From positions 96,001 to 160,000 of the forward strand of contig JBKHIT010000003.1 in assembly GCA_046538485.1 (NCBI GenBank): 64,000 nt of DNA, read 5' to 3'. Source of the DNA: Candidatus Brocadiia bacterium (GTDB lineage Bacteria > Planctomycetota > Brocadiia > SM23-32). Position 1 is the stretch's first letter, and each line of letters starts with the position of its first letter. The notes under the pieces were generated by a model, which made no database searches, had not been told where the DNA came from, and saw only the letters and a program-made list of their open reading frames with translations. The translations under genes and the position numbers were made by a program. Of the stretch, positions 20,044 through 33,025 are shown in pieces.

Positions 20044-23000
20044 TTGAGCACTAAAGAGGTTTATCAGGAATTTGTCAGTCCAAACGCACAATACCGAGGG
20101 AAGCCTTTCTGGGCCTGGAACGGCGTTCTTGACAGCGAAGAATTGAGGCGCCAGATTCGTGTTATGGACGAAATGGGTCTCGGCGGATTCTTCATGCATA
20201 GCCGCGTCGGACTCGGAACAGCATATTTGTCTGACGAATGGTTCGATATGATCAAAGCGTGCGTCGATGAAGCCAGAAAACGGGACATGGAAGCCTGGAT
20301 GTACGATGAAGACCGCTGGCCTTCGGGGGCCGCAGGCGGCTTCGTGACGAAAGATGAACGTTACAGGCGGCGAAGCCTCGTGGTGGTTCCCGAACATCCC
20401 GATAATGTTGAACTCGGAATTACCCCCCTCACACTGTTTGTGGCCCGGATTGAGGACGGATCTCTCATTGAGTACCAGAAGTATGAGAAAACAGAGGACC
20501 TGCCGGCGGACCTGGAACAGCCTGAGAGCTATCTGAGCTTCTATGTCAAACTGGACGATCCTTCCTCCTGGTACAATAATGGCACCTATCTCGACACAAT
20601 GAATCACGAGGCCGTGCAGCGTTTCATCGAAGTGACGCACGAGAGATATCGCGAGGAAGTTGGCGATGAGTTTGGAAACCATATCCCCGGGATCTTTACC
20701 GATGAACCTAATTATGGAAACATTGTCCAGCCTTTTGCGATTGAGGGAACGAAATCCTGGGAAACCGCCTGGACCGGGTCGCTTCCAGAAACGTTCAGCA
20801 AACGTTACGGCTACGAGATCATGGATGTGCTTCCTGAAATATTTTTCACCCCCGAGGGCGAAGAAATTTCTACGACTCGGTGGGATTATATGGATTGTGT
20901 TACGTTCCTTTTTTCCGATGCCTTCGCAAGGCAAATAGGGGAGTGGTGTGAAGAGAACAATGTAATGCACACGGGACATGTCCTTGCGGAGGGGACTCTT
21001 CGTTCCCAGAGTAGCGTCGTCGGATCGGCAATGCGATTTTACGAATATATGCAAGCTCAGGGGATCGATATCCTGACGGAGCATAATTACGAGTACGGAA
21101 CCGCTAAGCAATGTTCCAGCGTACAGCATCAAATGGGCCGCCGCTGGGTGCTGAGCGAGACCTATGGGTGCACGGGCTGGGATTTCAGTTTTGAAGGACA
21201 CAAAGCCGTTGGCGACTGGCAGGCGGCTCTTGGAATCAATCTGAGGTGTCAGCACCTCTCCTGGTATACCATGGCCGGTCAGGCCAAGCGCGATTATCCC
21301 GCTTCTATCCATTATCAATCTCCCTGGTGGCGGTACTACAGCACTGTGGAAGATTATTTTGCACGCCTTGCTGTGCTGACCAGCCGAGGACAAGCCGTCC
21401 GCCCACTGCTTGTCGTCCACCCTGTTGAAAGCGTCTGGGCTCTTGCCGGAGCGGAATGGCAAGACGATGAACGGGTCAAAATCCTGGACCAGCAACACGA
21501 CCAACTGCGTCAGTGGTTGTTGGAGGAACACCTGGATTTCGATTACGGGGACGAGGACATGATCGCTCGACTCGGAAAGGTTGATGCTGAGGAGCAGTCG
21601 CTCTGCATCGGAGAGGCGAACTACCAGACAGTTCTGGTGCCACCTATGCTGACGATACGGAGCAGCACTGCTGAAATTCTCAGCGAGTTCGCCGAAAAGG
21701 GCGGAAAAGTTGTTTTCTGCGGACAGATCCCTGAATACGTGGATGCTGCCAAACCCGAGGGGGGAGAACTCGACTTTGCTGGAAACTGCGCGCAGGCTTC
21801 CTTTTCCCGTGACCCCGTCGTTGATTCGGTGGCCGAGACACGTGTGGTCAGTATAACCGACGAGAACGGGAAACAGTGCAGGGATGTTCTGTATCTATTG
21901 CACCGGGACGGTTCGGACTACTACCTGTTTATCTGTAATACGAACCGGGAGGAAGGCACCGGGGTTTTGAAGATAAAAATCGAGGCTGAAGGACAGGTAC
22001 AGGCCTGGAACGCTGAAACCGGTGAGCGCTCGGATGCGGGAGCCGAGATCACTGAAGACGGCATGGAATTTTCCAGGGCACTTGCCCCTACCGGTAGCGC
22101 TGTTTTTGTAATAACTCCGGATGAAGAAGATTTGTCCGAGGAGAAACGCGCTTCAGAAGTAAAATCCGTGCCGTTGCCGGAAGACGGATGGGATATGCGG
22201 GTGAATGAACCGAATGTTTATGTGCTTGACCGCGTTTGGTACCGCATTGAGGAGGGGGACTGGCAGGGACCAGCAGAAGTGCTCAAGGCGGATAACGCCA
22301 TTCGCGACGCAATTGGACTTGATTCCCGTGGAGGGAAAATGGTCCAACCGTGGGCGAGAGAAGAAACGGCGGAAGGTCCAAAAGGGGAAGTGCAGTTGCG
22401 TGCGGAATTTAAGGTTGATGAAATTCCGAAAGGGCCTATCCAGGTGGCGCTCGAGGATCCCCAGAGGTTTTCAATTACACTGAACGGCCAGAGCGTTTCC
22501 ACGGAAGCTGAATGTGGCTGGTGGGTCGATCGGTCTATTCGTGTGATTCCACTCGATGTGGCAGAGGTAAAGGAAGGCACAAATACCATAGAACTTTCTG
22601 GAACTTATGACGATGATGCCGGGCTGGAGACTATGTTTTTGCTCGGATATTTTGGCGTCTCTTTGAACGGCAATGAGGCTGTTATAAAGGGCTTGTCTCA
22701 TTTAGATTTTGGGGATTGGACTCAGCAGGATCTGCCATTCTACAGCGGTGCGATAGCCTATGAAAGAAGCGTTCCGGTGCAGGCTGATAGCCGCAAAGTA
22801 TTCGTGAAAGTGCCTGATTTCAGCGGTGCTTGTGCGCGAGTGCTGGTTGACGGCGAAGAAGCGGGAGTGATAGGCTGGCAACCGGCCGAAGTTGAGATTA
22901 CGGAATACGTGCAGGATACGAGGGAAATTGGCCTGACCATTGAAGTAGTCTCGCACCGCAGGAATGCGTTTGGCCCGCTTCATAATGTGGAAACATGGCC

Positions 23001-23118
23001 ACGATGGACCGGCCCCTCCCAGTTTATAACATCCGGAGATCAATGGTCCGAAGATTATAACCTTGTCCCATGCGGTTGCTTCTCAATACCTCAAATCAGT
23101 TATCGAACGGTCGACTGA
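20044..23118 (+). CDS. GH106-like glycoside hydrolase (alpha-L-rhamnosidase family)
   Basis: PFWAWNG, MGLGGFFMHSRVGL, YDEDRWPSGAAGG, FTDEP, KRDYPASI, C-terminal PFYSG; TTG start with SD AAGGAG. Confidence 0.85.
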   Translation: MSTKEVYQEFVSPNAQYRGKPFWAWNGVLDSEELRRQIRVMDEMGLGGFFMHSRVGLGTAYLSDEWFDMIKACVDEARKRDMEAWMYDEDRWPSGAAGGFVTKDERYRRRSLVVVPEHPDNVELGITPLTLFVARIEDGSLIEYQKYEKTEDLPADLEQPESYLSFYVKLDDPSSWYNNGTYLDTMNHEAVQRFIEVTHERYREEVGDEFGNHIPGIFTDEPNYGNIVQPFAIEGTKSWETAWTGSLPETFSKRYGYEIMDVLPEIFFTPEGEEISTTRWDYMDCVTFLFSDAFARQIGEWCEENNVMHTGHVLAEGTLRSQSSVVGSAMRFYEYMQAQGIDILTEHNYEYGTAKQCSSVQHQMGRRWVLSETYGCTGWDFSFEGHKAVGDWQAALGINLRCQHLSWYTMAGQAKRDYPASIHYQSPWWRYYSTVEDYFARLAVLTSRGQAVRPLLVVHPVESVWALAGAEWQDDERVKILDQQHDQLRQWLLEEHLDFDYGDEDMIARLGKVDAEEQSLCIGEANYQTVLVPPMLTIRSSTAEILSEFAEKGGKVVFCGQIPEYVDAAKPEGGELDFAGNCAQASFSRDPVVDSVAETRVVSITDENGKQCRDVLYLLHRDGSDYYLFICNTNREEGTGVLKIKIEAEGQVQAWNAETGERSDAGAEITEDGMEFSRALAPTGSAVFVITPDEEDLSEEKRASEVKSVPLPEDGWDMRVNEPNVYVLDRVWYRIEEGDWQGPAEVLKADNAIRDAIGLDSRGGKMVQPWAREETAEGPKGEVQLRAEFKVDEIPKGPIQVALEDPQRFSITLNGQSVSTEAECGWWVDRSIRVIPLDVAEVKEGTNTIELSGTYDDDAGLETMFLLGYFGVSLNGNEAVIKGLSHLDFGDWTQQDLPFYSGAIAYERSVPVQADSRKVFVKVPDFSGACARVLVDGEEAGVIGWQPAEVEITEYVQDTREIGLTIEVVSHRRNAFGPLHNVETWPRWTGPSQFITSGDQWSEDYNLVPCGCFSIPQISYRTVD

Positions 23119-23535
23119 TTCCCATCGTCGTGGGAGTGGCTATAATTTGCCTGGTTCATCCGTTTCGTTGGTGTCCAACGTCAGAATAACCAGCCACAAC
23201 CGTCGCTACAACGGCGGCCGTGTGCCGCACCAAAACGTATCCTTCCTTTCGTGATTAATTTCGTAATTATATCCGCGCGATAGCCAGATTACTGCGGCGG
23301 CTACGCTGCTGCTTGACAACGACATTCGGGCGCCAGCTATGTTAACGCGCGGTAAACGGATACTCGTATATTGCTAAAGGGGCTGAATCTGAGTCTTCTT
23401 GTATCTTTTTCGGGTTTCCCGAAGTGGATGCCTGGCATTTGTAACTGGCGCATCACGCCATTCCCCTTTATTCTGTACATGCATAAACATAGAAATCATG
23501 AGAAAACGCCGGTTTCATCGGGAGAGTGCAAAATC

Positions 23536-26500
23536 ATGAACCATAAACTCAGAAGGCCCTTGAGTTTTTCTGTTTTCCTTGTTTTCACACTTGCGAACTG
23601 GGCTTGTGTTTTTGCGGGAGAAGCCGGCCAGATGAAGGAAAAGAGTGCGGCCGGTGAGGTATCATTTTCATACGAGCTTAAAGAGTCCGGACGTGTTTCA
23701 GCAGCCGTCTACGATACCGAGGGACATTTGCTACGTGAATTGCTGCGCGCTGAAAAGCAAAAACCGGGGCAGCATATTATTTCCTGGGATGGGTTGGACC
23801 GTGAAGGTAATCCGCAGAAGCCTGGCGAATACCAGTGGCGGGTGCTCCGCACACCCGGTTTTAGAGCCGAATACGTGACGAATTTGGGCATTAATCCGGA
23901 TTCCGTTCCTTATGACAAATGGGTGGGCAATCATGGTGGACCGGCCTCGGTCGAGGTCGATTCGTCCGGAATGTATATCGCAGCGACAGTGACAGAAACG
24001 GCCCCTGTGCTTTTGAAACAATCGCTCGGTGGTAAGGAGCGATTCTGGACGCGTGGCCGGGGCGATGTTACGACGGGACGTTTCCAGGGCGGTGTTTCTC
24101 TGGCGAGCGATGGCGAAGGGACGCTCTATATGTTGCAGCAGAACGCCTACGTTCAGGTAATTGATGCAAAAAGTGGACACCGGCGTGGCACGTGGGATCT
24201 TCTGCCCGAGGACGATGAACGTCGCGAAGACGGCCGTCTGAAACATCGTCGTTACAAGCACGGGCAGGCGATTTCTATGATAGACCTGGATGCGCGGGGG
24301 AGAACGGTGGTGATAAGCTACCACGACAGGGATAAAGTTTGCTGGGTGAGTCCTGATGACGGTTCGGTGCAATCGGAGGTGGCCATTGAGAATCCCTGGG
24401 GCGTTGAAGTGGGGTCGAATGACGAAGTTTTCGTGATTTCTTCAAAGAAGATAGTCAAAGTTGCGGCCTCCGGTGAACAGAGCGTGGTCGTTGCGGCCGG
24501 AATGATATCACCTCGGCGTCTTGCGATTGACCAAACGAGCGGAGATTTGTTGGTTTCTGAATTTGCCCCCACGCATCAGGTGAAACGTTTTTCGCCGAAG
24601 GGCAAACTCCAGAGTACCTACGGGCGGAAGGGCGGACGGCAGGATGGGCTTTATGTTCCAACGGATTTCCTGCACATTACCTCGATCTGTTCTGACGGAC
24701 AGGATGGCTTTGTTGTTACCGAGGAAAGAACCGCCCCGCGACGTGTGGCGCGTTTCAATGGAGAAGGACAGCTGGTGAAGGAGTGGTACGGCGGTCAACC
24801 TTACTATACCTGGGGAGAACCGGATACGCGCAATCCTCTCCGTGTCTGGTTTAATCCGGGATCATGGCTGACTTTGGCCGAGATAGACGCTGAAACCAAA
24901 AAATGGCGGGTTCTTGAAAATTATCGCCAGAGCGAGCTTGGCGGTGGGCTTGTGCGGACGGTCACCGGACACCGCGGGCGCTGGCATGTGTTGTATCGTG
25001 GGGATCAGCGGTATCTGGTCAGCGAAGGGGTACCACACGTTCTATTGCACGAAAAAGGTGCGCTGCGGGCGGTCGCAGTGGTGAGCAATGATGCCAGGCA
25101 GGTGTCAGTTGCTGCGGAGATGGCTGGCTACGAAGAAAAAGCGCGGTCATTTCGATGGCTCGATAAAAACAGGGACGGAACGCCTCAAGGTGAGGAGTTT
25201 ACGTTCTCGCCCGAAAGGCATGTGCCACGCGGACGTTGGGTTTCCGACAAGTTTGAAATTGTCGGTTTCGCTTCCGGGCGCGGGGAAGATGGCGCATTTG
25301 TCCGAGTCACCAGCACGCATCCAAAATGGACACAACGCGGGCCTGTCTACCCGATCGGGAATGAGGATGGTGTCAACAACACCGCCGGGGAAATGGAGGT
25401 TCCCAGCCCCGCAACGACAGGCGGAACACGGGGAGCGTGTGCTTTTCGCGACCGTAAGGGGGACTATTACGCTATTTACAATACCAGCAGTGACAGGCAC
25501 GGGACTACCTGGCCTACCGAATGGGGAGGGCGAAGCCGGGTTGTCAGGTGGGATTCAAAGGGAAACAAGCAATGGGAGGTCGGTCGGCATGCAATCCATG
25601 GCGGGCTCGGGAGTCGGCCTCACACGACCCCGCCGGGATACCTGCACGTGCCCGCGGCAATGATCGGAGAAATCCGCAATACGGTCGTAATGACCGATCG
25701 AGTCGAATGGATGGGATTAGTGTGGACGAAAGACGGATTATGCTGCGGCGATGTGCTGGATGGGCGCGTTGAAGACGGGTTGCCGGAGATTTGTTATTAC
25801 TGGTGGCGGACGCCCAGCGGCAAAGAAGCGATCATTACCAGTGACAATGCGACCGGTGGAGCTATTGTTGAAAACGATGATGGGTCCGTATACTTTTTCA
25901 CTCAGGGCCGCAACAGTGTGCCCGTTTACAAAATACACGGATGGGAGGACTGGAAACGTTTCAATGGGAAGATCGAACTCAAAGCCGAACCGCTTTACGC
26001 ACGCGGAGAGGGCAAAGGACTTACCGCGCGGTATTATCGCATAAAGAGCGAAGGCGGTTCCGAAGAAATAACGGAGTTATTCGAATCTGGCGGGACTGAT
26101 TTTGATGAACCGAATGTTGTCCGTGTCGATCGCCAGGTCTGGCATGGGGTCCCGCGTCATAACCCTGGAAACCATACGATTATCGACGGTTTTCGTGGTG
26201 GGCCAGCCTATGATTGGTCAGAAGGTGTGAAACTTCTGAAGAAGGCCGAAGGGGGACAGCTGGGACTCAATGCTATGGCAAAGCCGTCGCGGGCTTTCGG
26301 GGTGCGGTGGACAGGGGAAATCGAATCCCCGCTGACTGAAATCTTCGTTTTTTCAGTCTATCACCGCGGGCGCGTCAGGCTCTGGATCGATGGGCAACAG
26401 AAAATATTTGGCTGGAACGAGAGCCGGCAGCGTCGGGAAAGTGGTACGATCGAGCTGAGAGCGGGAAAGCGCTACAGCATCCAGCTCGATTTCAAATCCG

Positions 26501-27018
26501 AGCAGTTGTATCCCGCGTGCAGTTTGAACTGGGAATCATCAAGTATAGATCGGCGGCGTATCCCGCAGAAATATCTTTATCCCGCTGAAATAGAAGTCGC
26601 AGATAAACCGGACGTGCGCGATGCCAGGACCAGAATCCCTGCGTTTACTTTCGATGAGACAAATATAGAGACTGACGATCGGCGAAATTATACCCGGGGT
26701 CTGCGACAGCGGGGGATCGGTACGTCGGGGGCATACCTCGGTTTCAAGCGAATCGATTTTGGAGAAGGGAGTACCAAATTGAAAGCGATGGCGAGGGGTA
26801 ATCCAGCGGGGCGGAACAAATTCGACGTTAGTTTCACGTTCAAAATAGATAATCTCGATGGATCTGCGATTGCGAAAGTGAGCATGAGGGACGGCAAAAT
26901 GCGGGAGCGGCCGGTTGAACTGAAAAAAAAGATCTCGGGGATTCACGATGTTTACGTGGTAAACACGAGCCCGAAGAGATGGCATTTTATCGGGTTGAAA
27001 TATTTTGTTTTCAAATAA
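23536..27018 (+). CDS. Large secreted modular protein: FlgD-Ig domain, beta-propeller, PA14 domain, CBM6-like domain
   Basis: Signal peptide; VSAAVYD..G.LLREL...G.H...WDG.D..G (FlgD-Ig); GKGLTARYY, FGVRWTG.I.SP, VRLWIDG (PA14); FKRIDFGEG...ISGIHDVYVV (CBM6-like). Confidence 0.8.
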   Translation: MNHKLRRPLSFSVFLVFTLANWACVFAGEAGQMKEKSAAGEVSFSYELKESGRVSAAVYDTEGHLLRELLRAEKQKPGQHIISWDGLDREGNPQKPGEYQWRVLRTPGFRAEYVTNLGINPDSVPYDKWVGNHGGPASVEVDSSGMYIAATVTETAPVLLKQSLGGKERFWTRGRGDVTTGRFQGGVSLASDGEGTLYMLQQNAYVQVIDAKSGHRRGTWDLLPEDDERREDGRLKHRRYKHGQAISMIDLDARGRTVVISYHDRDKVCWVSPDDGSVQSEVAIENPWGVEVGSNDEVFVISSKKIVKVAASGEQSVVVAAGMISPRRLAIDQTSGDLLVSEFAPTHQVKRFSPKGKLQSTYGRKGGRQDGLYVPTDFLHITSICSDGQDGFVVTEERTAPRRVARFNGEGQLVKEWYGGQPYYTWGEPDTRNPLRVWFNPGSWLTLAEIDAETKKWRVLENYRQSELGGGLVRTVTGHRGRWHVLYRGDQRYLVSEGVPHVLLHEKGALRAVAVVSNDARQVSVAAEMAGYEEKARSFRWLDKNRDGTPQGEEFTFSPERHVPRGRWVSDKFEIVGFASGRGEDGAFVRVTSTHPKWTQRGPVYPIGNEDGVNNTAGEMEVPSPATTGGTRGACAFRDRKGDYYAIYNTSSDRHGTTWPTEWGGRSRVVRWDSKGNKQWEVGRHAIHGGLGSRPHTTPPGYLHVPAAMIGEIRNTVVMTDRVEWMGLVWTKDGLCCGDVLDGRVEDGLPEICYYWWRTPSGKEAIITSDNATGGAIVENDDGSVYFFTQGRNSVPVYKIHGWEDWKRFNGKIELKAEPLYARGEGKGLTARYYRIKSEGGSEEITELFESGGTDFDEPNVVRVDRQVWHGVPRHNPGNHTIIDGFRGGPAYDWSEGVKLLKKAEGGQLGLNAMAKPSRAFGVRWTGEIESPLTEIFVFSVYHRGRVRLWIDGQQKIFGWNESRQRRESGTIELRAGKRYSIQLDFKSEQLYPACSLNWESSSIDRRRIPQKYLYPAEIEVADKPDVRDARTRIPAFTFDETNIETDDRRNYTRGLRQRGIGTSGAYLGFKRIDFGEGSTKLKAMARGNPAGRNKFDVSFTFKIDNLDGSAIAKVSMRDGKMRERPVELKKKISGIHDVYVVNTSPKRWHFIGLKYFVFK

Positions 27019-27094: not shown

Positions 27095-28450
27095 TTAATT
27101 CCCGGGTTCGGCCGTACTGGAAGACTTTTCACTTTCGAAGTTTTTCCAGTCATCTTCGATCTTTTCCGCTTCAATGGGAGTGCCGCCGTAATGGAAGGTC
27201 TCCCCGTGTCCCGCAACGACCCTGACATCACGTTCTTCACTGCGTGCGCGAATATGACCGGCAAGAACTTTCACGGTGATGGTATGGTCTTCATCGACGG
27301 TGACCTCCGCTTTGCCCGAGAGTAAATTCAAGCGAGCGGCTTTTGAGCGGATCTGAAGCTCTGATCGCCCGGGGACGGTCGCGAGCAGTTTGCCGCTGTA
27401 GACGCTTACAGAACCCGCACTATGGATTTGCAGTTTGGATTGGCCAGCAAGGCGGACGGTTTTTTCCCCGAGCTTAATGCGTGCAAGACTACTTTCTATC
27501 GTGCGGGATACCATTCCGTGTCGAAGCTGCGCTGATTCACCAGCCGAAAGTGATTTATCGCCCAATTTCAGCGTTCCATCGATGGCCTCGATCGTTCCGA
27601 TTGGCCAGAACAGAAAATAGCCTGCAATGAGTACGACCACCAGCGCTATTGTCCCGGCGAACTTGGCGAAGTTCAGAAAAGCTTTCCGGGTGGGAGCGGC
27701 AGCCAGCGCGCCCAGGTCATACAGCAGAATAAGCGGGACCGCCATCATGATTTGTGTGAAGGGATCAGGCGGAGTGAAGACGGCGGCGAGGACGAAACCG
27801 AGGAGAATAGCGGTTTTACGGTGTTTTTGGACCGTTTCGATGGAAATGATGTTCCACTGAACAAGGTGATACATAATAAGGGGAGTCTGAAATACAATGC
27901 CCAGGACCAGAGTCATCAGGACGATAAGCGAGAGGTAGGGGCCGATCATCAACATCGGTTGAGTGGTCGCACCTGATAGCGTGAGGAGAAAACGCAGTGC
28001 GTAGGGGATAAAAACGAAATACCCGAAGGCTATCCCAATGATAAAACATAGCAGGGAGATAGCGCCCAATCGCAGTAGAACGGAGCGCTCTTTTTTGTAA
28101 AGCCCGGGAGCGACGAAGGCCCACATCTGATAAAGCCAGAAAGGAGCGGCCAGAATCGCGGCGATCAGAAGAGACGCTTTCATATATGCAAGGACATCTT
28201 CGAGATAACCCTGGTACTTTAAGCGGGTATCGATATGATGGGCCTGTGTGGCGAGAATATGCGGCCGGATCAAAATCTGTCGGATGCGATGGCGGAAAAA
28301 CCAGGCTAAGATGAAAGCCACTGCAAGGACTGCGAGGCATCTCAAAATTCTCGTTCGGAGTTCTTCCAGGTGGTCTCCGAGCGGCATTTCCAGTTCGCCT
28401 GTCTCGCTCTTGGGTGAATCGGTGTTCACCAGCAATCCGTTTCCTGCCAA
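27095..28450 (-). CDS. tatC: Twin-arginine translocase subunit TatC with C-terminal extra TM and FecR-like domain (start may be GTG 28429)
   Basis: MPLGDHLEELRTR, YQMWAFVAPGLYKKE, FQTP and TPPDPFTQ motifs, followed by a ~190 aa extension. Confidence 0.92.
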   Translation of the reverse strand: MAGNGLLVNTDSPKSETGELEMPLGDHLEELRTRILRCLAVLAVAFILAWFFRHRIRQILIRPHILATQAHHIDTRLKYQGYLEDVLAYMKASLLIAAILAAPFWLYQMWAFVAPGLYKKERSVLLRLGAISLLCFIIGIAFGYFVFIPYALRFLLTLSGATTQPMLMIGPYLSLIVLMTLVLGIVFQTPLIMYHLVQWNIISIETVQKHRKTAILLGFVLAAVFTPPDPFTQIMMAVPLILLYDLGALAAAPTRKAFLNFAKFAGTIALVVVLIAGYFLFWPIGTIEAIDGTLKLGDKSLSAGESAQLRHGMVSRTIESSLARIKLGEKTVRLAGQSKLQIHSAGSVSVYSGKLLATVPGRSELQIRSKAARLNLLSGKAEVTVDEDHTITVKVLAGHIRARSEERDVRVVAGHGETFHYGGTPIEAEKIEDDWKNFESEKSSSTAEPGN

Positions 28451-28490
28451 GAAAGATTCGGGTGGGGAATTTCAGGAAGAGGTCCGGTCT

Positions 28491-29966
28491 TCAATATTCT
28501 TTTCGCATTCGAGATGACGGAATATTCAGGTTCTTCCGGTATTTGGAGATAGTACGGCGAGCGATATCAATGCCTTCTTCGTTCAGTTTATCCGCGATGT
28601 CCTGGTCGCTGAGGGGATTGCTCTTATCTTCGTTTTCAACAATATTGAGGAGTTTTTTCTTGACGACTTCCCACGACTCCATTTCTCCATTATCTTTCTC
28701 TACTCCTCCTGTAAAGAAATGCTTGAGAGAATAGATTCCCTGGGGAGTTTGCGCATATTTATCGGAAATTGCCCGGCTGACGGTTGAAACATGGACGCCC
28801 ACGCGGTCTGCGACTTCCTGCATTTTCAGCGGTTTCAGGTGCATTTCTCCTTTTTCAAAGAATTCTTTCTGAGCATTAACGATATCCTCAGTCACATTTT
28901 GAACGGTGGCTCGACGTTGCTCAATAGCAGAGATCAATCCTTGGGCGCTTTGAAGCTTTTTCTTCAGATACTCACGCGTCTTTTCATCGAGATCTTTTTG
29001 GCGCAGCCTGCGGGCGTAGTATGCGCAGATGCTCAGCGATGGAAGCCAGCTATCTTCCTGGATTACTTCGAATTTCCCATCTCGTTCAACGATGCGAATT
29101 TCAGGTGTGACGTGGGGGGTAATGGGTTTTTGGAAGAGGGATCCTGGAATGGGGTTTAGTTTACTGATAGATTCAACAGCTTCTTTCAGCTTTTCAATGG
29201 AGCAGCCGACAGCTCGGGCAACCTTAGGATAGCGATTTTGGAGGATGTCGTCGAAATGATCGGTGATGATTTTTTTCAGAAGGTCATAATTCGGATCTCT
29301 CTTATCCAGTTGCAACAGCAGGCATTCTTCCGTATTACGGGCGGCAACGCCGGGTGGCTCAAAGCTCTGCACCAGTTTGAGTGCATCCTCGGCCTGCTCG
29401 AGCGTAACGTTATTATCCATCGACGCCACAATCTCTTCCAGAGGATGTGCGAGATAACCTCTGTCGTCGAGGTTGGCAACGATATTTTCGCCGATCGCGC
29501 GCATATCTTCGTCAAGGTCATGGTATGCCAGCTGGCTGTTGAGATGATCTTCGAGAGACGGGTCCGGGGCAGGGGAGTTTTCGAATGCTTCCTGTTTATC
29601 GCCTTTGGTATTGGGCGAGTAGCTCCCTGATGAGGTTGCGGAGGCTGAACGTTCGTAATATGAGGCCAAATCGTCAAAACGATCAAAATCGTCGGCTTGC
29701 TCTTCTTCGTTGGCGCTGACCTCGTCGAGCTTTTCTTCCTCTGCTGGCTCTTCGACCTCTGAGTTTTCGAGGGATTTTGTTTTTGCATCCTCTTCTTTAT
29801 CTTCAGAGATGGTTTGCTCCAACATGGGGTTTTCCTGCAGTTCTTCATCGATTCGGTGTTTCAACTCAATCAGGGGCAACTGCAGTATTTCTATCGACTG
29901 GATTACCTGTGGAGCCAGCCGCATACGCATTTCCTGTCGCGCCTGCAGGCTGGCTTCCATTCTCAT
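28491..29966 (-). CDS. rpoN: RNA polymerase sigma-54 factor
   Basis: Q/L-rich N-terminus (QSIEILQL...ENPMLE), NLDDRGYL, HVSTVSRA HTH, RpoN box ARRTISKYR. Confidence 0.97.
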   Translation of the reverse strand: MRMEASLQARQEMRMRLAPQVIQSIEILQLPLIELKHRIDEELQENPMLEQTISEDKEEDAKTKSLENSEVEEPAEEEKLDEVSANEEEQADDFDRFDDLASYYERSASATSSGSYSPNTKGDKQEAFENSPAPDPSLEDHLNSQLAYHDLDEDMRAIGENIVANLDDRGYLAHPLEEIVASMDNNVTLEQAEDALKLVQSFEPPGVAARNTEECLLLQLDKRDPNYDLLKKIITDHFDDILQNRYPKVARAVGCSIEKLKEAVESISKLNPIPGSLFQKPITPHVTPEIRIVERDGKFEVIQEDSWLPSLSICAYYARRLRQKDLDEKTREYLKKKLQSAQGLISAIEQRRATVQNVTEDIVNAQKEFFEKGEMHLKPLKMQEVADRVGVHVSTVSRAISDKYAQTPQGIYSLKHFFTGGVEKDNGEMESWEVVKKKLLNIVENEDKSNPLSDQDIADKLNEEGIDIARRTISKYRKNLNIPSSRMRKEY

Positions 29967-29996
29967 GGATTTATTACCTTTCTTCGATTAAAAGGC

Positions 29997-30617
29997 CTAT
30001 TCGGTCTCTGATTGTTCGATTTCACGTCGCCCTTGCAACGCTTCGGTGACAATTGCCGAATCGGCGTACTCGAGGTGGCTGCCGCTGGGAAGTCCTTTGG
30101 CAATGCGCGTGATTTTCACATCGATGTTCTCGAGAGCCTTGCGCACGAATTCGGCGGTTACATCTCCTTCCATATCGGGATTGGTGGCAAGGATGATTTC
30201 TTCACTTTGTTCATCGGCTGCTCTCCGCAGCAGATCATCAATCGTCAGATCTTCAGGCTCAATACCATCAAGAGGTGCCAGGCGGCCGCCGAGAACATGG
30301 TAAAGCCCCCTGTATCCGCCGCTTTCTTCAATCGCTGCTGCGTCCTGAGAACTTTCGACCACACAAATTGTGCTGGGGTCTCGACGTTCATCGGAGCATA
30401 TGTGACACGGGTCGCTTTCCGATAGCAAATGGCAAATCGAACATTGCCTGATACTCTTTTTGACAGTTTCGATTGCCCGGGCAAGCTCAAGAGCTTCATC
30501 ATTGCTGAGACGCACGATATGATAAGCCAGCCGCTCGGCCGTTTTCTCCCCGACTCCTGGCAGACCGGTCAACCGTTCTACCAACCGGGAAATAGATTCG
30601 GCACCTCCCTTGTTCAT
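29997..30617 (-). CDS. recR: Recombination mediator RecR
   Basis: LPGVGEKTAERLA HhH, C4 zinc finger CSIC...CHIC, TOPRIM (YHVLGG, ATNPDMEGD). Confidence 0.97.
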   Translation of the reverse strand: MNKGGAESISRLVERLTGLPGVGEKTAERLAYHIVRLSNDEALELARAIETVKKSIRQCSICHLLSESDPCHICSDERRDPSTICVVESSQDAAAIEESGGYRGLYHVLGGRLAPLDGIEPEDLTIDDLLRRAADEQSEEIILATNPDMEGDVTAEFVRKALENIDVKITRIAKGLPSGSHLEYADSAIVTEALQGRREIEQSETE

Positions 30618-30685
30618 AGTCGGTCCTCTCCTGCTTTCCGGATGCCAGAATTATTGTACCAGCTGAGCTGTATTTTTGCCAATTT

Positions 30686-31036
30686 TTAGAGCAAGTTTTC
30701 GATTCCCGGCAACGGGATTCCCTGGGTCAATTTGCTTTTTTCTTCCTCTTCAATGTCGGCGGCTTTTTTCAAGCCCTGCCTTACGGCAGCGAGGATCATC
30801 TCCTGGAGGAATTCCGGGTCTTCTTCCTCCAGAATGGTCGGTTCTATCTTGACATCAAGGGGCTCTTGAAGCCCGTTGAAAAGCACCTTCACCATACCTC
30901 CGCCGGCACTTCCCTCGACCACCCGCTCTTTGAGCGTTTCATCGAGTTCATCCATCTGTTTCTGCAATTCTTTTACCTGATTCTGAGCTTGTTTCATGAT
31001 ACGACCCATGTCGCCCAGACCGCCTAAACCTTTCAT
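30686..31036 (-). CDS. ybaB: YbaB/EbfC nucleoid-associated protein
   Basis: MKQAQ...GSAGGGMVKV..NG...LQEMILAAV; lies between dnaX and recR. Confidence 0.93.
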   Translation of the reverse strand: MKGLGGLGDMGRIMKQAQNQVKELQKQMDELDETLKERVVEGSAGGGMVKVLFNGLQEPLDVKIEPTILEEEDPEFLQEMILAAVRQGLKKAADIEEEEKSKLTQGIPLPGIENLL

Positions 31037-31168
31037 TACCTGGCTCCTGAAATAAATTATCGCTTGTAGAGTTCTTCTTTATCCACTAAAACCACCCGGT
31101 CCCGTTTGCATCATCTTTGTCGAGAGATTTTTGCACGGATAGCGATTTGCGTGTGAAAATAAAACAGT

Positions 31169-32698
31169 TTACTGATCGTCTTCCATGGTGTTTTCGCCGG
31201 TTTGTTTTTGTTCGTCCAATTTTTTTTGCCGTTCCCGCAGCTGTACAGGGCGCAACCCAAATTCTTTATCGGCTTGGATGAACGCTTGCATCAGCGAGTC
31301 TTCGTTTTTTAAACCGTTTGCCAGAGTTCGTTTTTCGGCCGATACTTCAATCTGCTTGTATGTGTCTCTGTCGATTCCCTCCGGGAGATCCATTTTTTCT
31401 GTCTCTGAAATACGTCTCTGACCAGAAGGATTTTTCTGCTGCAGTTTCTTCATCATGCTGGCCACACGCGAAGATTGACTATCTTTCTTTTTTTTTTGAG
31501 GAGACACTCCCGTTGACTTTTTCTGTGCGGTCTCTTTTTCCGTTGACGGATTGGCTTCTGTTTGCGGATCCCCTCCCGAAAGGCGTTCGATAGCTTCTTC
31601 CAAATGCAGCAAATCCTCTGTGTTTGAAAGTTTAATAATAGCCAGTTCCATTGCCAGCCGACCCGTGCTATCGCGTCGGGCTCGGAGTTTTGCCTCACGG
31701 AAGACCTGAAGTAGATAGAGTATTTGGTCTGGAGAGAAGGCTTCTGCCTGGCGTTCGAGGGTTTCAGAATCAGCGGGGGCGCTGGCGAGCAAGTCATCCT
31801 CTGGTCCACAATAACTGGCGACCAGCAAATCGCGGAGGTATGCCGAAATCTGATCGGCAAAATCCAGAATATCAACGCCCCCCAGCAGCACTTCGTGCAT
31901 TTTTTGCAGGGCCTTGCCGGTTTGCTGGTCAGATAGGGCGTCAACAATTTCGACCAGAGTTTGTGTGCGAGCGGTGCCCAAAACCATGCGGACATCCTCG
32001 GACCGCACCTGCTTTCCACCGAATGCTGCCACCTGGTCGAGTGTCCCGAGGGCGTCCCTCATACTTCCCCGCGCCGCCCGTGCGATAAGTTGCAGCGCAC
32101 CGTCTTCCACCTCAAGATCTTCTTGGGAACAGATCCCACGCAGATGATCGACGATCTGGAGGTCCGATAAACGCCGAAAATCAAAACGCTGGCAGCGGCT
32201 CTTAACAGTTTCAGGTAATTGTTGGGGGTCGGTGGTTGAGAAAATAAATTTTACGTGTTCGGGCGGTTCTTCCAGCGTTTTGAGCAGGGCGTTGAAGGCA
32301 TGATCGCTGAGCATATGGACTTCATCAATGTAATAAATTTTGTAACGACTGCGCGCCGGGGCATATTTAACGTTCTGGCGCAACTGTTCGATATCTTCCA
32401 CGAGTCGATTTGATGCACCATCGATCTCCATGACATCAATATCCTCCCCGCTTGCAATGCGTTTGCAGGCATCACATTCCCCGCAGGGCTCCGGCGTCGG
32501 TCCTTTTTCGCAGTTCAGAGCGCAGGCAAGGATCCGAGCCATCGTTGTTTTGCCGACTCCGCGGCTGCCGCAGAACAAATAAGCGTGCGCCACTTTGCCT
32601 TCCCGAACTGCATTTTGCAGCGTTCGGGCAACATGTTCTTGTCCAACCACTTCGCTGAACTGAGTCGGTCGGTATTTTCGAGCAAAAACCAAATACAC
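31169..32698 (-). CDS. dnaX: DNA polymerase III subunit gamma/tau (GTG start at 32698)
   Basis: ARKYRP, GQEHV, Walker A GSRGVGKTT, zinc CEKG..PCGECDAC, IDEVHML, NALLKTLEEPP, SRC, GSMRDA. Confidence 0.97.
   Translation of the reverse strand: MYLVFARKYRPTQFSEVVGQEHVARTLQNAVREGKVAHAYLFCGSRGVGKTTMARILACALNCEKGPTPEPCGECDACKRIASGEDIDVMEIDGASNRLVEDIEQLRQNVKYAPARSRYKIYYIDEVHMLSDHAFNALLKTLEEPPEHVKFIFSTTDPQQLPETVKSRCQRFDFRRLSDLQIVDHLRGICSQEDLEVEDGALQLIARAARGSMRDALGTLDQVAAFGGKQVRSEDVRMVLGTARTQTLVEIVDALSDQQTGKALQKMHEVLLGGVDILDFADQISAYLRDLLVASYCGPEDDLLASAPADSETLERQAEAFSPDQILYLLQVFREAKLRARRDSTGRLAMELAIIKLSNTEDLLHLEEAIERLSGGDPQTEANPSTEKETAQKKSTGVSPQKKKKDSQSSRVASMMKKLQQKNPSGQRRISETEKMDLPEGIDRDTYKQIEVSAEKRTLANGLKNEDSLMQAFIQADKEFGLRPVQLRERQKKLDEQKQTGENTMEDDQ
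31479..31511 (-). other. Candidate programmed frameshift / slippage site in dnaX
   Basis: Coding strand GGGAG-TGTCTCCTC-A10-GAAAGATAG; in-frame A AAA AAG; -1 frame TAG two codons later. Confidence 0.6.
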
Positions 32699-32753
32699 GG
32701 AACTGACCCCGGAAAAGCAGAATACTTCCTGTCTGAGAGAAAGCCAAAAATTT

Positions 32754-33025
32754 GGGATCGTGCACTCCGTTTGGCAACACATCTTCGGCAGTAGCCGTTG
32801 TTCAGCTCCCGGCGAGCTGCCCCACGGCAGGCAGGGGTACCGCTTATGGCTGCTGGCGTCAACCCCTGACCAAGTTCACGGCCGCCCTACTCCATGGGAC
32901 CCACCGTTCAATACTGAGCTAACAGCTCTTTTCCTGAAAGATGCCATTGCCGCAGCGGAGCGGTCAGCCCTGCTGAGCGGTTTGCAGGTACAGGGCACCG
33001 CTAGTACCCCGCTTAGCACGATCCC
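32754..33025 (-). ncRNA. ffs: Large bacterial SRP RNA (Alu-domain type)
   Basis: 5' GTGCTAAGCGGGG..TAGCGGTGCCCTGTACCTGCAA.CCGCT..GCAGGG matches the Bacillus scRNA Alu domain; helix 8 CAGG-GGT-TGAC-GCC-AGCAG; terminal helix TTTGGGATCGTGC/GCACGATCCCAAA; directly upstream of dnaX. Confidence 0.93.

What the first reader, a model, noticed from the sequence alone, without database searches (positions are those of the whole stretch)
27095..28450. TatC fused to a seventh TM helix and a FecR-like domain
Seen in sequence: a complete TatC core (to ~aa 253) continues without a stop into another hydrophobic helix (FAGTIALVVVLIAGYFLFW). This is followed by ~150 aa with the beta-strand pattern of FecR domains (G.I..I.G...L..G...RT...S.A.I.L....V.L...S.L.I...V..G.L.A.V....L.I.S..A.L...G.A.V.V.....V.V..G.I....V.V.AG). 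Established: canonical TatC has six TMs with a cytoplasmic C-terminus, and FecR domains are extracytoplasmic signalling/interaction modules. Inference: the extra TM places this domain in the periplasm, giving a Tat receptor with a built-in trans-side module that might capture, gate or hand off substrates. No tatA/tatB is adjacent; the gene ends the ffs-dnaX-ybaB-recR-rpoN run. I do not know of a described TatC with this architecture.
Basis: partly seen in the sequence, partly recalled or inferred. Interest (0 to 1): 0.8.

Follow-up and report, generated by a model that had tools for sequence, protein, structure and literature searches.

The report
TatC export receptor with outward FecR domain
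This gene encodes the cell's only TatC (the receptor of the machine that exports folded proteins) joined through a seventh membrane helix to an outward-facing FecR-type beta domain; the fusion is real and nearly universal in its bacterial class, but it was already noted in 2010 and its function is still untested.

Summary
Window 27095..28450 (minus strand) is one open frame. Its likely start is the ATG at 28387, giving 430 aa: a full TatC core, a seventh hydrophobic helix and a ~170-aa beta domain.

The beta domain belongs to the FecR family. Pfam FecR is borderline in this copy but matches 19 of 30 orthologues. A profile of the domain hits PupR (6OVK), and Foldseek puts PupR and BDI_1681 on top.

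It is not an assembly artefact. Of 124 TatC-bearing genomes in the class, 105 carry the full-length form in one frame. Only two families have a plain TatC.

The architecture is not new. Medema et al. 2010 described TatC-FecR in Kuenenia and speculated on a role in anammoxosome sorting.

New here:
- The fusion also occurs in four families where hydrazine synthase alpha was not found, including this genome's family. That argues against an anammoxosome-specific role.
- The domain lacks the STN and anti-sigma parts of FecR regulators.
- A three-copy model predicts self-association (ipSAE 0.78, best control 0.00). This fits the (TatBC)3 architecture and the homotrimeric periplasmic insert of Myxococcus TatC (2026).

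Function remains inferred.

The parts
27095..28387 (-). tatC-fecR fusion gene, 430 aa from the ATG at 28387, stop codon included. The open frame runs on upstream to a TTG at 28450.
   Evidence: ORF list and translation. The start is placed by alignment with 29 orthologues.
27734..28375 (-). TatC core (residues 5-218 of the 430-aa protein), six transmembrane helices
   Evidence: Pfam TatC 8.1e-63 over 5-218. TIGR00945 188 bits. Aligns with A. aeolicus TatC 4B4A over 1-235. F91 and E100 are invariant in the W-x-F...L-Y-x-x-E motif.
27605..27688 (-). Seventh transmembrane helix (residues 234-261), preceded by P-T-R-K-A-F-L-N-F
   Evidence: AlphaFold2 helix 234-260. Hydropathy segment with a peak of 2.27. 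Present in all 30 aligned orthologues.
27191..27598 (-). FecR-type beta domain (residues 264-399), like the juxtamembrane (CJM) subdomain of PupR. No STN/FecR_C part.
   Evidence: Pfam FecR in 19 of 30 orthologues. Profile against PDB: 6ovk_R E 1.6e-6. AF2 pLDDT 95.2. Foldseek top 4 are PupR and BDI_1681.
27119..27169 (-). C-terminal helix (residues 407-423) with the invariant Trp414. It is the donor side of the predicted interface between copies.
   Evidence: AF2 helices. W invariant in 30 of 30. Interface residues 138-163 of the domain.

Best explanation
The gene encodes the genome's only TatC, and it looks functional as the signal-peptide receptor of a Tat system that works with an unlinked TatA.

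After TM6 the chain crosses the membrane once more (TM7). This places a ~170-aa FecR-family beta domain, the CJM-like part only, on the trans (periplasmic) side.

My best reading of that domain is structural. TatC works as a trimer. I propose that the three FecR domains associate head to tail through their conserved C-terminal segment (the G-G-x-P motif and the Trp helix). They would form a trans-side cap that adds to the TatC-TatC contacts. This would be analogous to the homotrimeric periplasmic insert of Myxococcus xanthus TatC, but reached by a different route (a C-terminal TM7 link instead of a loop insert) and with a different fold.

Shown:
- the domain composition;
- the fold family;
- conservation across the class;
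- that it is the only TatC found in the assembly.

Inferred:
- the topology;
- the trimeric cap, which is a model prediction only;
- any effect on transport.

The confidence given is for the cap mechanism. That this is a real TatC-TM7-FecR protein I hold at about 0.95.
For: Identity:
- TatC 212 bits and TIGR00945 above its cut-off.
- One TatC locus in the 88%-complete genome.
- One TatA of 78 aa on another contig.
- Three candidate substrates with canonical S/D-R-R-x-F-L-K/R motifs.

FecR domain:
- 19 of 30 orthologues match PF04773.
- The domain profile hits PupR 6ovk_R at E 1.6e-6 and 4m0h at 3.7e-5.
- AF2 model pLDDT 95.2.
- The Foldseek top 4 are PupR CCSSD and BDI_1681 (prob 1.00, TMq 0.51-0.59). 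The next hit is at E 0.07.

Conservation:
- The profile search of 132 class genomes gave 124 with TatC.
- 105 of these are full length in one stretch, and 10 are split or truncated but reach the FecR part.
- 4 are uninformative fragments and 5 are TatC only.

Self-association:
- Three copies of the domain scored ipSAE 0.78, against 0.00 for the best of 3 controls.
- The mark was reached by 20 of 30 proteins solved as pairs of one chain, and by 1 of 23 solved as single chains.
- The runs agree in at least 75% of contacts, and the partner's pLDDT is at least 87.
- These counts hold only roughly, because my own alignment and three copies were used.
- The interface includes the invariant W153 and G132 and the near-invariant G141 (domain numbering).

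Precedent, from passages of Deme et al. 2026: TatBC is (TatBC)3; the M. xanthus periplasmic insert forms a homotrimer (PDB 9E0S) and augments the TatC contacts.
Against: - The complex score is the model's own confidence. It was calibrated on two copies, not three.
- I could not see coordinates. So I cannot exclude that the interface is a swap of a helix that packs on its own domain in the monomer. I also cannot check that the three N-termini face the membrane at a spacing that fits TatC3.
- Conservation at the predicted interface is not significantly higher than in the rest of the domain (0.473 against 0.431, permutation p 0.11).
- PupR-type FecR domains are not known to me as trimers (from recall).
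- No experiment exists for any TatC-FecR protein. The literature searches found only the in-silico note of 2010.
- The full-length trimer (1290 residues) exceeds the tool's size limit and was not modelled.
Confidence: 0.4

Rival explanations
1. The FecR domain is a docking module for a separate trans-side partner. This could be a periplasmic or outer-membrane protein, a maturation or quality-control factor, or a just-exported substrate. It would be close to the first reader's 'capture, gate or hand off'.
For: In PupR and FecR the same fold is part of a protein-binding periplasmic module (structure titles; its role is from recall). The domain is conserved across the class, so it is under selection.
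Against: - The partner-binding STN/FecR_C subdomain of the regulators is missing. No such Pfam hit appeared at E<=1 in this protein, nor at E<=0.01 in the 30 orthologues.
- No conserved neighbour gene suggests a partner. rpoN adjacency occurs in 8 of 29 unnamed loci and 1 of 30 named loci.
- In anammox-type loci the conserved neighbours are ribH, nusB, ftsY and an Fe-S protein.
Confidence: 0.3
2. TM7 plus the FecR domain is a former Tat substrate that became fused to its receptor. In this reading TM7 is an internal, uncleaved Tat signal-anchor, as reported for E. coli FecR. It still binds the signal-peptide site of TatC, in cis or in a neighbouring subunit, and so regulates the translocase or needs Tat for its own export.
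For: - The stretch before TM7 reads T-R-K-A-F-L-N-F here, S-R-R-A-F-A-N-F in L003 and T-R-R-G-F-I-F-L in L024. All are close to the S/T-R-R-x-F-L-K consensus.
- The 2026 review lists FecR as a class V Tat substrate with an internal signal, citing Passmore et al. 2020. I saw only the review passage, not that paper.
Against: - The twin basic pair is not conserved. By my reading of the 30 sequences it is RR in 4, RK in 4 and KK in 4. The other 18 have a single R/K or none at that position.
- KK pairs are generally not accepted by Tat (from recall).
- Basic residues after TM6 are normal for the cytoplasmic tail of any TatC (tails).
Confidence: 0.08
3. The domain is a sorting or identity device for the anammoxosome membrane, as Medema et al. 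2010 speculated.
For: All anammox families sampled carry the fusion (f5, f80, f81, f82, f83). Medema et al. predicted an anammoxosomal Tat system (passages).
Against: - The fusion is just as conserved in four families where hydrazine synthase alpha was not found: f1 0 of 30 plus the window's genome, f2 0 of 1, f3 0 of 1, f6 0 of 2.
- All of these have the full-length fused TatC.
- The FecR-type cores form one group in the TatC tree. The fusion therefore looks older than, or independent of, anammox.
Confidence: 0.04
4. The domain is a sensor that is cut by regulated proteolysis, as in FecR-type anti-sigma regulators. Tat activity would then be coupled to an envelope signal.
For: Membership of the FecR family.
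Against: - There is no cytoplasmic anti-sigma domain and no STN domain.
- No conserved Gly-Thr pair appears in the domain consensus. That this pair is the self-cleavage site of FecR-like proteins is from recall.
- The adjacent rpoN is not a conserved neighbour.
Confidence: 0.05
5. Artefact: two genes joined by an assembly or sequencing error.
For: None. In three relatives (G008, G231, G240) the frame is split into adjacent pieces. This shows that frameshifts or errors occur in some assemblies, but they separate the parts rather than join them.
Against: 105 genomes carry the same architecture in one uninterrupted frame. The 30 aligned orthologues are collinear from end to end.
Confidence: 0.01

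Closest known systems
TatC-FecR of Candidatus Kuenenia stuttgartiensis, kustc0286 (Medema et al. 2010, BMC Genomics 11:299; passages read)
   Same: Same architecture: a canonical TatC with a C-terminal FecR (PF04773) domain predicted to be non-cytoplasmic. The anammox-family orthologues align end to end with the window protein at 29-34% identity. They share one group in the TatC tree.
   Different: This copy comes from a family where hydrazine synthase alpha was not found, so the proposed link to the anammoxosome cannot apply. The 2010 note was made in silico on one genome and took the domain for a unique anammox trait.
Myxococcus xanthus TatC with a homotrimeric periplasmic domain, and Nitratifractor salsuginis TatC (Deme et al. 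2026, Nat Microbiol; PDB 9E03, 9E0S, 9E02; passages read)
   Same: A TatC that carries a folded trans-side domain. In M. xanthus this domain trimerises and adds to the TatC-TatC contacts on the periplasmic face of (TatBC)3.
   Different: There the domain is an insert in a periplasmic loop of a six-helix TatC (chains of 382 and 409 aa). Here it hangs from a seventh helix at the C-terminus and has a FecR fold. No 9E0x chain was among the rows listed by Foldseek for the domain. Trimerisation here is only predicted.
FecR/PupR-type sigma regulators; PupR C-terminal cell-surface signalling domain, PDB 6OVK; BDI_1681, PDB 4M0H/4M0N
   Same: The beta domain matches by profile (E 1.6e-6) and by fold (TMq 0.59, rmsd 2.7 A over 123 columns). 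Like them, it follows a single membrane helix.
   Different: It has no N-terminal anti-sigma domain and no C-terminal STN/FecR_C subdomain. A short Trp-bearing helix follows the domain instead.
Haloarchaeal long TatCs: 14-TM TatCt and 10-TM TatCx (review by Bruser and co-workers 2026, PMC13673990; passages read)
   Same: TatC proteins with extra transmembrane helices beyond the canonical six.
   Different: Those add whole TatC repeats or four helices and no soluble trans-side domain. In the passages I searched, the review has no occurrence of planctomycete, anammox or seventh, and no passage on a TatC-FecR fusion.
Canonical six-helix TatC (A. aeolicus 4B4A; E. coli 9DZZ)
   Same: The core aligns over its whole length (E 2e-33) with the conserved receptor motifs.
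   Different: The canonical proteins end a few to about 25 residues after TM6 in the cytoplasm. Among 79 mostly Planctomycetota loci, 10 had a TM7-like stretch after the core and one record ran off its end. The rest had hydrophilic tails, mostly of about 1-36 aa.

Membership tests
TatC (PF00902 / TIGR00945) | Sequence matches the family model above the curated cut-off | tested here: met
   PF00902 212.2 bits against 25.1. TIGR00945 188 bits against 132.7.
TatC (PF00902 / TIGR00945) | Six-helix core collinear with solved TatC structures | tested here: met
   Aligns 1-235 with 4B4A residues 1-233. AF2 helices and hydropathy segments agree.
TatC (PF00902 / TIGR00945) | Residues that bind the twin-arginine motif (E. 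coli F94 and E103, as named in the review passage) | tested here: met
   F91 and E100 are invariant in 30 of 30. They lie in the W-x-F-x-x-P-x-L-Y-x-x-E motif, which aligns with the same motif of A. aeolicus TatC. The mapping to E. coli numbering is from recall.
TatC (PF00902 / TIGR00945) | A TatA-family partner and twin-arginine substrates in the same genome | tested here: met
   One TatA/B/E hit at 49.6 bits, a 78-aa ORF. Three TIGR01409 hits with canonical motifs.
TatC (PF00902 / TIGR00945) | Transport activity | not testable with these tools
   Needs complementation or in vitro transport.
FecR domain (PF04773) | Sequence matches the family model above the curated cut-off (24 bits) | tested here: inconclusive
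   This protein scores 20.3-20.4 bits by hmmscan and 24.2 bits in the six-frame genome search. 19 of 30 orthologues match at E<=0.01, best 3.4e-10.
FecR domain (PF04773) | Fold like the solved FecR-family domains | tested here: met
   The Foldseek top 4 of at least 500 matches are PupR 6OVK and BDI_1681 4M0H/4M0N (prob 1.00), then a gap to E 0.07. The profile hits the same chains.
FecR domain (PF04773) | Extracytoplasmic location behind a membrane helix | not testable with these tools
   Inferred from TatC topology plus one helix. My charge count is ambiguous. Medema et al. report three predictors agreeing for the Kuenenia orthologue.
FecR/PupR-type anti-sigma regulator | N-terminal cytoplasmic anti-sigma domain | tested here: not met
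   The N-terminus is the TatC core. There is no other Pfam hit at E<=1.
FecR/PupR-type anti-sigma regulator | C-terminal STN / FecR_C subdomain that binds the TonB-dependent transducer | tested here: not met
   No such Pfam hit in this protein or in the 30 orthologues. The match to PupR ends at chain residue 145 of 219. A 17-residue helix follows instead.
TatC-FecR fusion class (Medema et al. 2010) | TatC core, seventh helix and FecR domain in one polypeptide | tested here: met
TatC-FecR fusion class (Medema et al. 2010) | Orthology with the anammox proteins | tested here: met
   End-to-end alignment. 54 FecR-type cores and 2 truncated rows form one group with SH-aLRT 91. This is a quick tree, and the branch is not at the 95 mark.
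TatC with a trimerising trans-side domain (M. xanthus type) | Domain inserted in a periplasmic loop of TatC | tested here: not met
   The domain is C-terminal, behind TM7.
TatC with a trimerising trans-side domain (M. xanthus type) | Homotrimer of the trans-side domain | tested here: inconclusive
   Prediction only: ipSAE 0.78 against 0.00 for the best control. Conservation at the interface is not significant (p 0.11).

The most novel reading that the evidence does not exclude
TM7 and the FecR domain descend from a FecR-like Tat substrate that fused to its own receptor. TM7 would still act as a tethered signal-peptide mimic that occupies the signal-binding site of a TatC subunit. The three FecR domains would lock together on the trans side. 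The result would be a Tat core complex with a built-in pseudo-substrate that sets its resting or assembled state. Together with the other TM7-linked trans-side domains seen in Planctomycetota TatCs, this would mean that trans-side caps on TatC trimers evolved repeatedly.
Probability: 0.08. Interest if true: 0.7.

Novelty: new member of a known kind. Interest (0 to 1): 0.35.

Why it matters
TatC is the conserved receptor of the only general pathway that moves folded proteins across energised membranes. In well-studied systems it has almost no mass on the trans side.

A whole bacterial class, including the anammox bacteria that matter for the nitrogen cycle, has replaced the plain TatC with a seven-helix form carrying an outward FecR domain. 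Nobody has tested what this does.

The first (TatBC)3 structures of 2026 show that a trans-side trimerising domain can add to the TatC contacts in Myxococcus. That makes a concrete, cheap test possible here: does the isolated domain trimerise, and does removing it destabilise the complex?

The finding that families without hydrazine synthase carry the same fusion removes the only hypothesis in print, anammoxosome sorting, at least as a general explanation.

For the scan itself the result is modest. The gene is a new member of a kind described in 2010.

Tried and rejected
1. 'TM7 replaces TatB.' TatA-family hits per genome: f1 mostly one (17 of the 21 f1 relatives with a hit, and one in the window's genome). 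The fused families f5 and f6 mostly have two, and the unfused f4 has two next to tatC. No class-wide link, so rejected as a general explanation.

2. Internal twin-arginine signal before TM7. The motif is not conserved. Kept only as a low-odds rival.

3. Positive-inside count around TM7. Ambiguous: mean K+R is 1.5 before and 1.53 after, and 9 of 30 have more before. The window borders I chose cut through the basic residues, so I do not lean on it.

4. Conservation at the predicted interface. Not significant, p 0.11.

5. Gene neighbourhood. rpoN-tatC adjacency occurs in 8 of 29 unnamed and 1 of 30 named loci. The anammox-type loci share ribH, nusB-PHP, ftsY and an Fe-S protein upstream. No candidate partner emerged.

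6. Word-indexed protein search with the C-terminal region. It found only one near-identical protein, which reflects the limits of that index, as the later profile searches show.

7. Single-sequence search of the class with the domain. It found f1 and one f81 genome only (24 of 132). The profile was needed.

8. The search for related loci with the single protein P0034. It gave only two TatC-core matches in Actinomycetota-labelled MAGs.

9. HZS_alpha (PF18582) as an anammox marker. It is not specific, with many copies in large proteins of f2, f3, f6 and g19. I replaced it with the full HzsA protein and NF052339.

10. Fold search with the full-length model. It never ran.

11. Not done, because conservation of the uninterrupted frame in 105 genomes settles the question.
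Full report
**The observation**

Window 27095..28450 holds one open frame on the minus strand, 451 aa from a TTG. In an alignment with 29 orthologues every protein begins at M-[PST]-L-G-x-H-L-x-E-L-R. In the window this corresponds to the ATG at 28387, so the product is probably 430 aa.

- Pfam finds TatC over nearly the whole model (E 9.1e-63, 212 bits). TIGR00945 scores 188 bits against a cut-off of 132.7.
AlphaFold2 models it as helix 234-260 in 430-aa numbering.
- An all-beta domain follows.
- Pfam FecR is just below its cut-off in this copy (20.3 bits against 24). The six-frame genome search scored the same place at 24.2 bits. FecR matches 19 of the 30 aligned orthologues at E<=0.01, best 3.4e-10.
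- The upstream run is confirmed: large SRP RNA at 32758..33021, then dnaX, ybaB, recR and rpoN, all on the minus strand.
- No tatA or tatB lies nearby. The one TatA-family gene of the assembly is a 78-aa ORF on another contig, next to a 433-aa ORF that I take for histidinol dehydrogenase by eye; no family search was run on it.

**What the C-terminal domain is**

A profile of the 30 C-terminal domains, searched against all PDB sequences, hits the C-terminal cell-surface signalling domain of the sigma regulator PupR (6ovk_R, E 1.6e-6). It also hits the putative anti-sigma factor BDI_1681 (4m0h, E 3.7e-5). The next hits, ribosomal protein L6, are at E 0.12.

An AlphaFold2 model of the domain alone has mean pLDDT 95.2. 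Foldseek against the PDB puts the same two proteins in the first four places (probability 1.00, TMq 0.51-0.59, rmsd 2.7 A over 123 columns for PupR). Then there is a gap to E 0.07.

The match covers only the first ~145 residues of the PupR chain, the FecR or juxtamembrane part. The STN/FecR_C part is absent, and so is any anti-sigma domain. A 17-residue helix with an invariant tryptophan ends the protein. So the protein belongs to the FecR domain family but is not a FecR-type regulator.

**It is real and old**

- A profile of the whole protein was run over the 132 genomes held for the class. TatC was found in 124.
- By my count of that table, 105 have one uninterrupted match over essentially the whole profile.
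- 10 are split by frameshifts or contig ends but reach the FecR part.
- 4 are uninformative fragments.
- 5 are plain TatCs whose frame ends after the core. All five come from two families (f4 four of four, f7 one of one).
- Named records with full-length matches are labelled Candidatus Brocadia, Jettenia, Scalindua, 'Brocadiaceae bacterium' and Planctomycetota.
- In a quick maximum-likelihood tree of TatC cores, all 54 FecR-type rows and two truncated ones fall in one group (SH-aLRT 91, below the 95 mark).

An assembly artefact is excluded.

**It is in print**

Medema et al. [quoted passage not shown] They added that three topology predictors place it outside the cytoplasm, and that it might have a role in protein sorting to the anammoxosome.

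Four full-text searches (TatC with FecR; anammoxosome with TatC; kustc0286; anammox with twin-arginine and FecR) found no other paper that treats it. A 2026 review of Tat evolution discusses the 10- and 14-helix TatCs of haloarchaea. In the passages I searched it has no occurrence of planctomycete, anammox or seventh, and its only mentions of FecR concern FecR as a Tat substrate.

Two earlier reports of this scan, on other genomes, reached the same verdict.

**What is new here: not an anammox trait**

The hydrazine synthase alpha subunit is an 809-aa ORF in an f5 genome, an equivalog match to NF052339 at 1546 bits. As a protein query it found nothing in the window's genome (88% complete). It found only short domain-level hits in 2 of 30 other genomes of its family.

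The NCBIfam model, run over the class, gave:

| Families | hzsA found |
|---|---|
| f80 | 2 of 2 |
| f81 | 8 of 14 |
| f5 | 29 of 47 |
| f82 | 23 of 28 |
| f83 | 1 of 1 |
| f1 | 0 of 30, and not in the window's genome |
| f2 | 0 of 1 |
| f3 | 0 of 1 |
| f6 | 0 of 2 |
| f4 | 0 of 4 |
| f7 | 0 of 1 |

Families f1, f2, f3 and f6 nevertheless all carry the fused TatC. 'Not found' in draft genomes is not proof of absence. Even so, 0 of 34 across four families makes a function tied to the anammoxosome unlikely as the general explanation.

**Is the Tat system working?**

- This is the only TatC locus of the assembly.
- F91 and E100 are invariant in all 30 orthologues. They sit in the motif that aligns with the same motif of A. 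aeolicus TatC.
- I read them as the E. coli F94 and E103, which the review names as the key residues for twin-arginine binding. That mapping is from recall.
- The genome has three hits to the TAT-signal model. They have textbook motifs: SRRSFLKK on a DUF362 protein, SRRHFLKG on a sulfatase, and DRRNFLRK on a hemerythrin-domain protein.

**How it may work**

The 2026 cryo-EM work (Deme et al., Nat Microbiol; passages) shows a (TatBC)3 core whose three TatCs pack tightly at the periplasmic face. The authors also solved two 'atypical' complexes whose TatCs carry large inserts in periplasmic loops. The Myxococcus insert forms a homotrimer and augments the TatC contacts.

This prompted one test. 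Three copies of the window's FecR domain, with the 30-row alignment, gave the following:

- ipSAE 0.78 in all three runs, against 0.00 for the best of three controls.
- The mark was reached by 20 of 30 proteins solved as pairs of one chain, and by 1 of 23 solved as single chains.
- The runs agree in at least 75% of contacts, and the partner's pLDDT is at least 87.
- The counts hold only roughly, since my own alignment and three copies were used.

In the predicted interface the C-terminal segment of one copy (domain residues 138-163, with the G-G-x-P turn and the Trp helix) lies on the sheet face of the next copy. That face comprises residues 8-9, 21, 40, 51, 53, 74, 100, 112-117 and 123-135. 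The invariant W153 and G132 and the near-invariant G141 are in the interface.

Against this:

- Conservation over all 41 interface positions is not significantly above the rest of the domain (p 0.11).
- I could not inspect coordinates, so a swapped-helix artefact and the geometry relative to TM7 remain open.

I therefore hold the 'trimeric trans-side cap' at about 0.4. A separate, unknown trans-side partner is the main rival at 0.3.

**Ideas tested and set aside**

- The thought that TM7 stands in for TatB fails. The window's family mostly has one TatA-family gene, but the equally fused anammox families mostly have two.
- The stretch before TM7 resembles a Tat signal in some members: T-R-K-A-F-L here, S-R-R-A-F and T-R-R-G-F-I-F-L elsewhere. 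According to the review passage, E. coli FecR is itself a Tat substrate with an internal signal. But the basic pair is not conserved: by my count RR in 4 of 30, RK in 4 and KK in 4, with a single basic residue or none in the other 18. I keep this 'fused former substrate' idea as the most novel reading not excluded, at low odds.
- Gene neighbourhood gives no partner.

**Wider context, seen in passing**

A profile search of 1.84 billion representative proteins returned 150 top hits. My script sorted them as follows: 28 are FecR-type. A further 23 are long TatCs (429-583 aa) with a different C-terminal region behind the core; a seventh helix is clear in 19 of them and weaker in 4.

- One set of 16 has a domain with no Pfam match.
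- Five proteins have weak HEAT-repeat matches, one above Pfam's cut-off; four of them fall in a second set of five.
- Neither set is related to the FecR domain (hhalign probability 0.1%).
- In the tree these two sets form separate groups.

Among 79 named, mostly Planctomycetota loci:

- 6 have a tail of about 200 aa (five FecR-type and L115); five of these pass the hydropathy mark for a seventh helix, and L116, a FecR-type locus, falls just short at 1.4.
- 4 have a hydrophobic stretch and a short tail.
- One record ends inside the core.
- The rest have hydrophilic tails, mostly of about 1-36 aa.

Trans-side additions to TatC thus seem to have arisen more than once in this phylum.

**Verdict**

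The novelty claim is wrong, because the architecture has been known since 2010. The gene is a new member of a known kind. Its function is still open, and there is now a concrete structural hypothesis to test.

Noticed in passing
proteins P0031-P0129; locus L115:1001-2323: Other long TatCs (429-583 aa) have a C-terminal region after the core that is not FecR; most have a clear seventh helix. A set of 16 clusters has no Pfam match. Five proteins have weak HEAT_2 matches. They are unrelated to the FecR domain by hhalign (0.1%) and form separate groups in the TatC tree. The one named full-length relative is a Planctomycetota MAG.
   Followed up: partly
L130, L153, L160, L166 (about 1001-1900 in each): Four Planctomycetota TatCs have a hydrophobic stretch after TM6 (G-G-R-F-V-G-E...W-P-L...) but only a 43-67 aa tail. 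They may be a seven-helix TatC without a trans-side domain.
   Followed up: no
G231:C1:3568412-3569688; G240:C1:8536-9862; G008:C10:224435-225691: In three relatives the tatC-fecR frame is broken into two or three adjacent pieces. One of them is a single-contig genome. These are frameshifts, sequencing errors or decaying genes.
   Followed up: no
genomes G018, G025, G026, G029, G032: Between 11 and 18 matches to the HZS_alpha domain (PF18582) per genome, in open frames of about 710-1730 aa. In these genomes hydrazine synthase alpha itself was not found. The domain is therefore not a marker of anammox.
   Followed up: partly
window 32758-33021 (-) and 31169-32782 (-): The large SRP RNA overlaps the 5' end of the longest dnaX open frame by 25 bases, so the real dnaX start must lie further downstream.
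   Followed up: no
window 20044-23118 (+) and 23371-27018 (+): Two very large ORFs converge on tatC. One (1024 aa) has a weak alpha-L-rhamnosidase (GH106) match. The other (1215 aa) has FlgD-Ig, PA14 and CBM6 domains. They are probably secreted carbohydrate-active proteins.
   Followed up: no
window 27095-33021; L042:1705-7293 and 12 similar loci: tatC lies near SRP components in both lineages: ffs in the window, and ftsY (with ribH and nusB-PHP) divergently upstream in 10-13 of 19 anammox-type loci. This may be chance.
   Followed up: partly
L158:1001-1759: A MAG contig labelled Candidatus Kuenenia sp. carries a TatC that ends 8 residues after the core, unlike the fused form of the anammox families. 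It may be a mis-binned contig or a second TatC.
   Followed up: no
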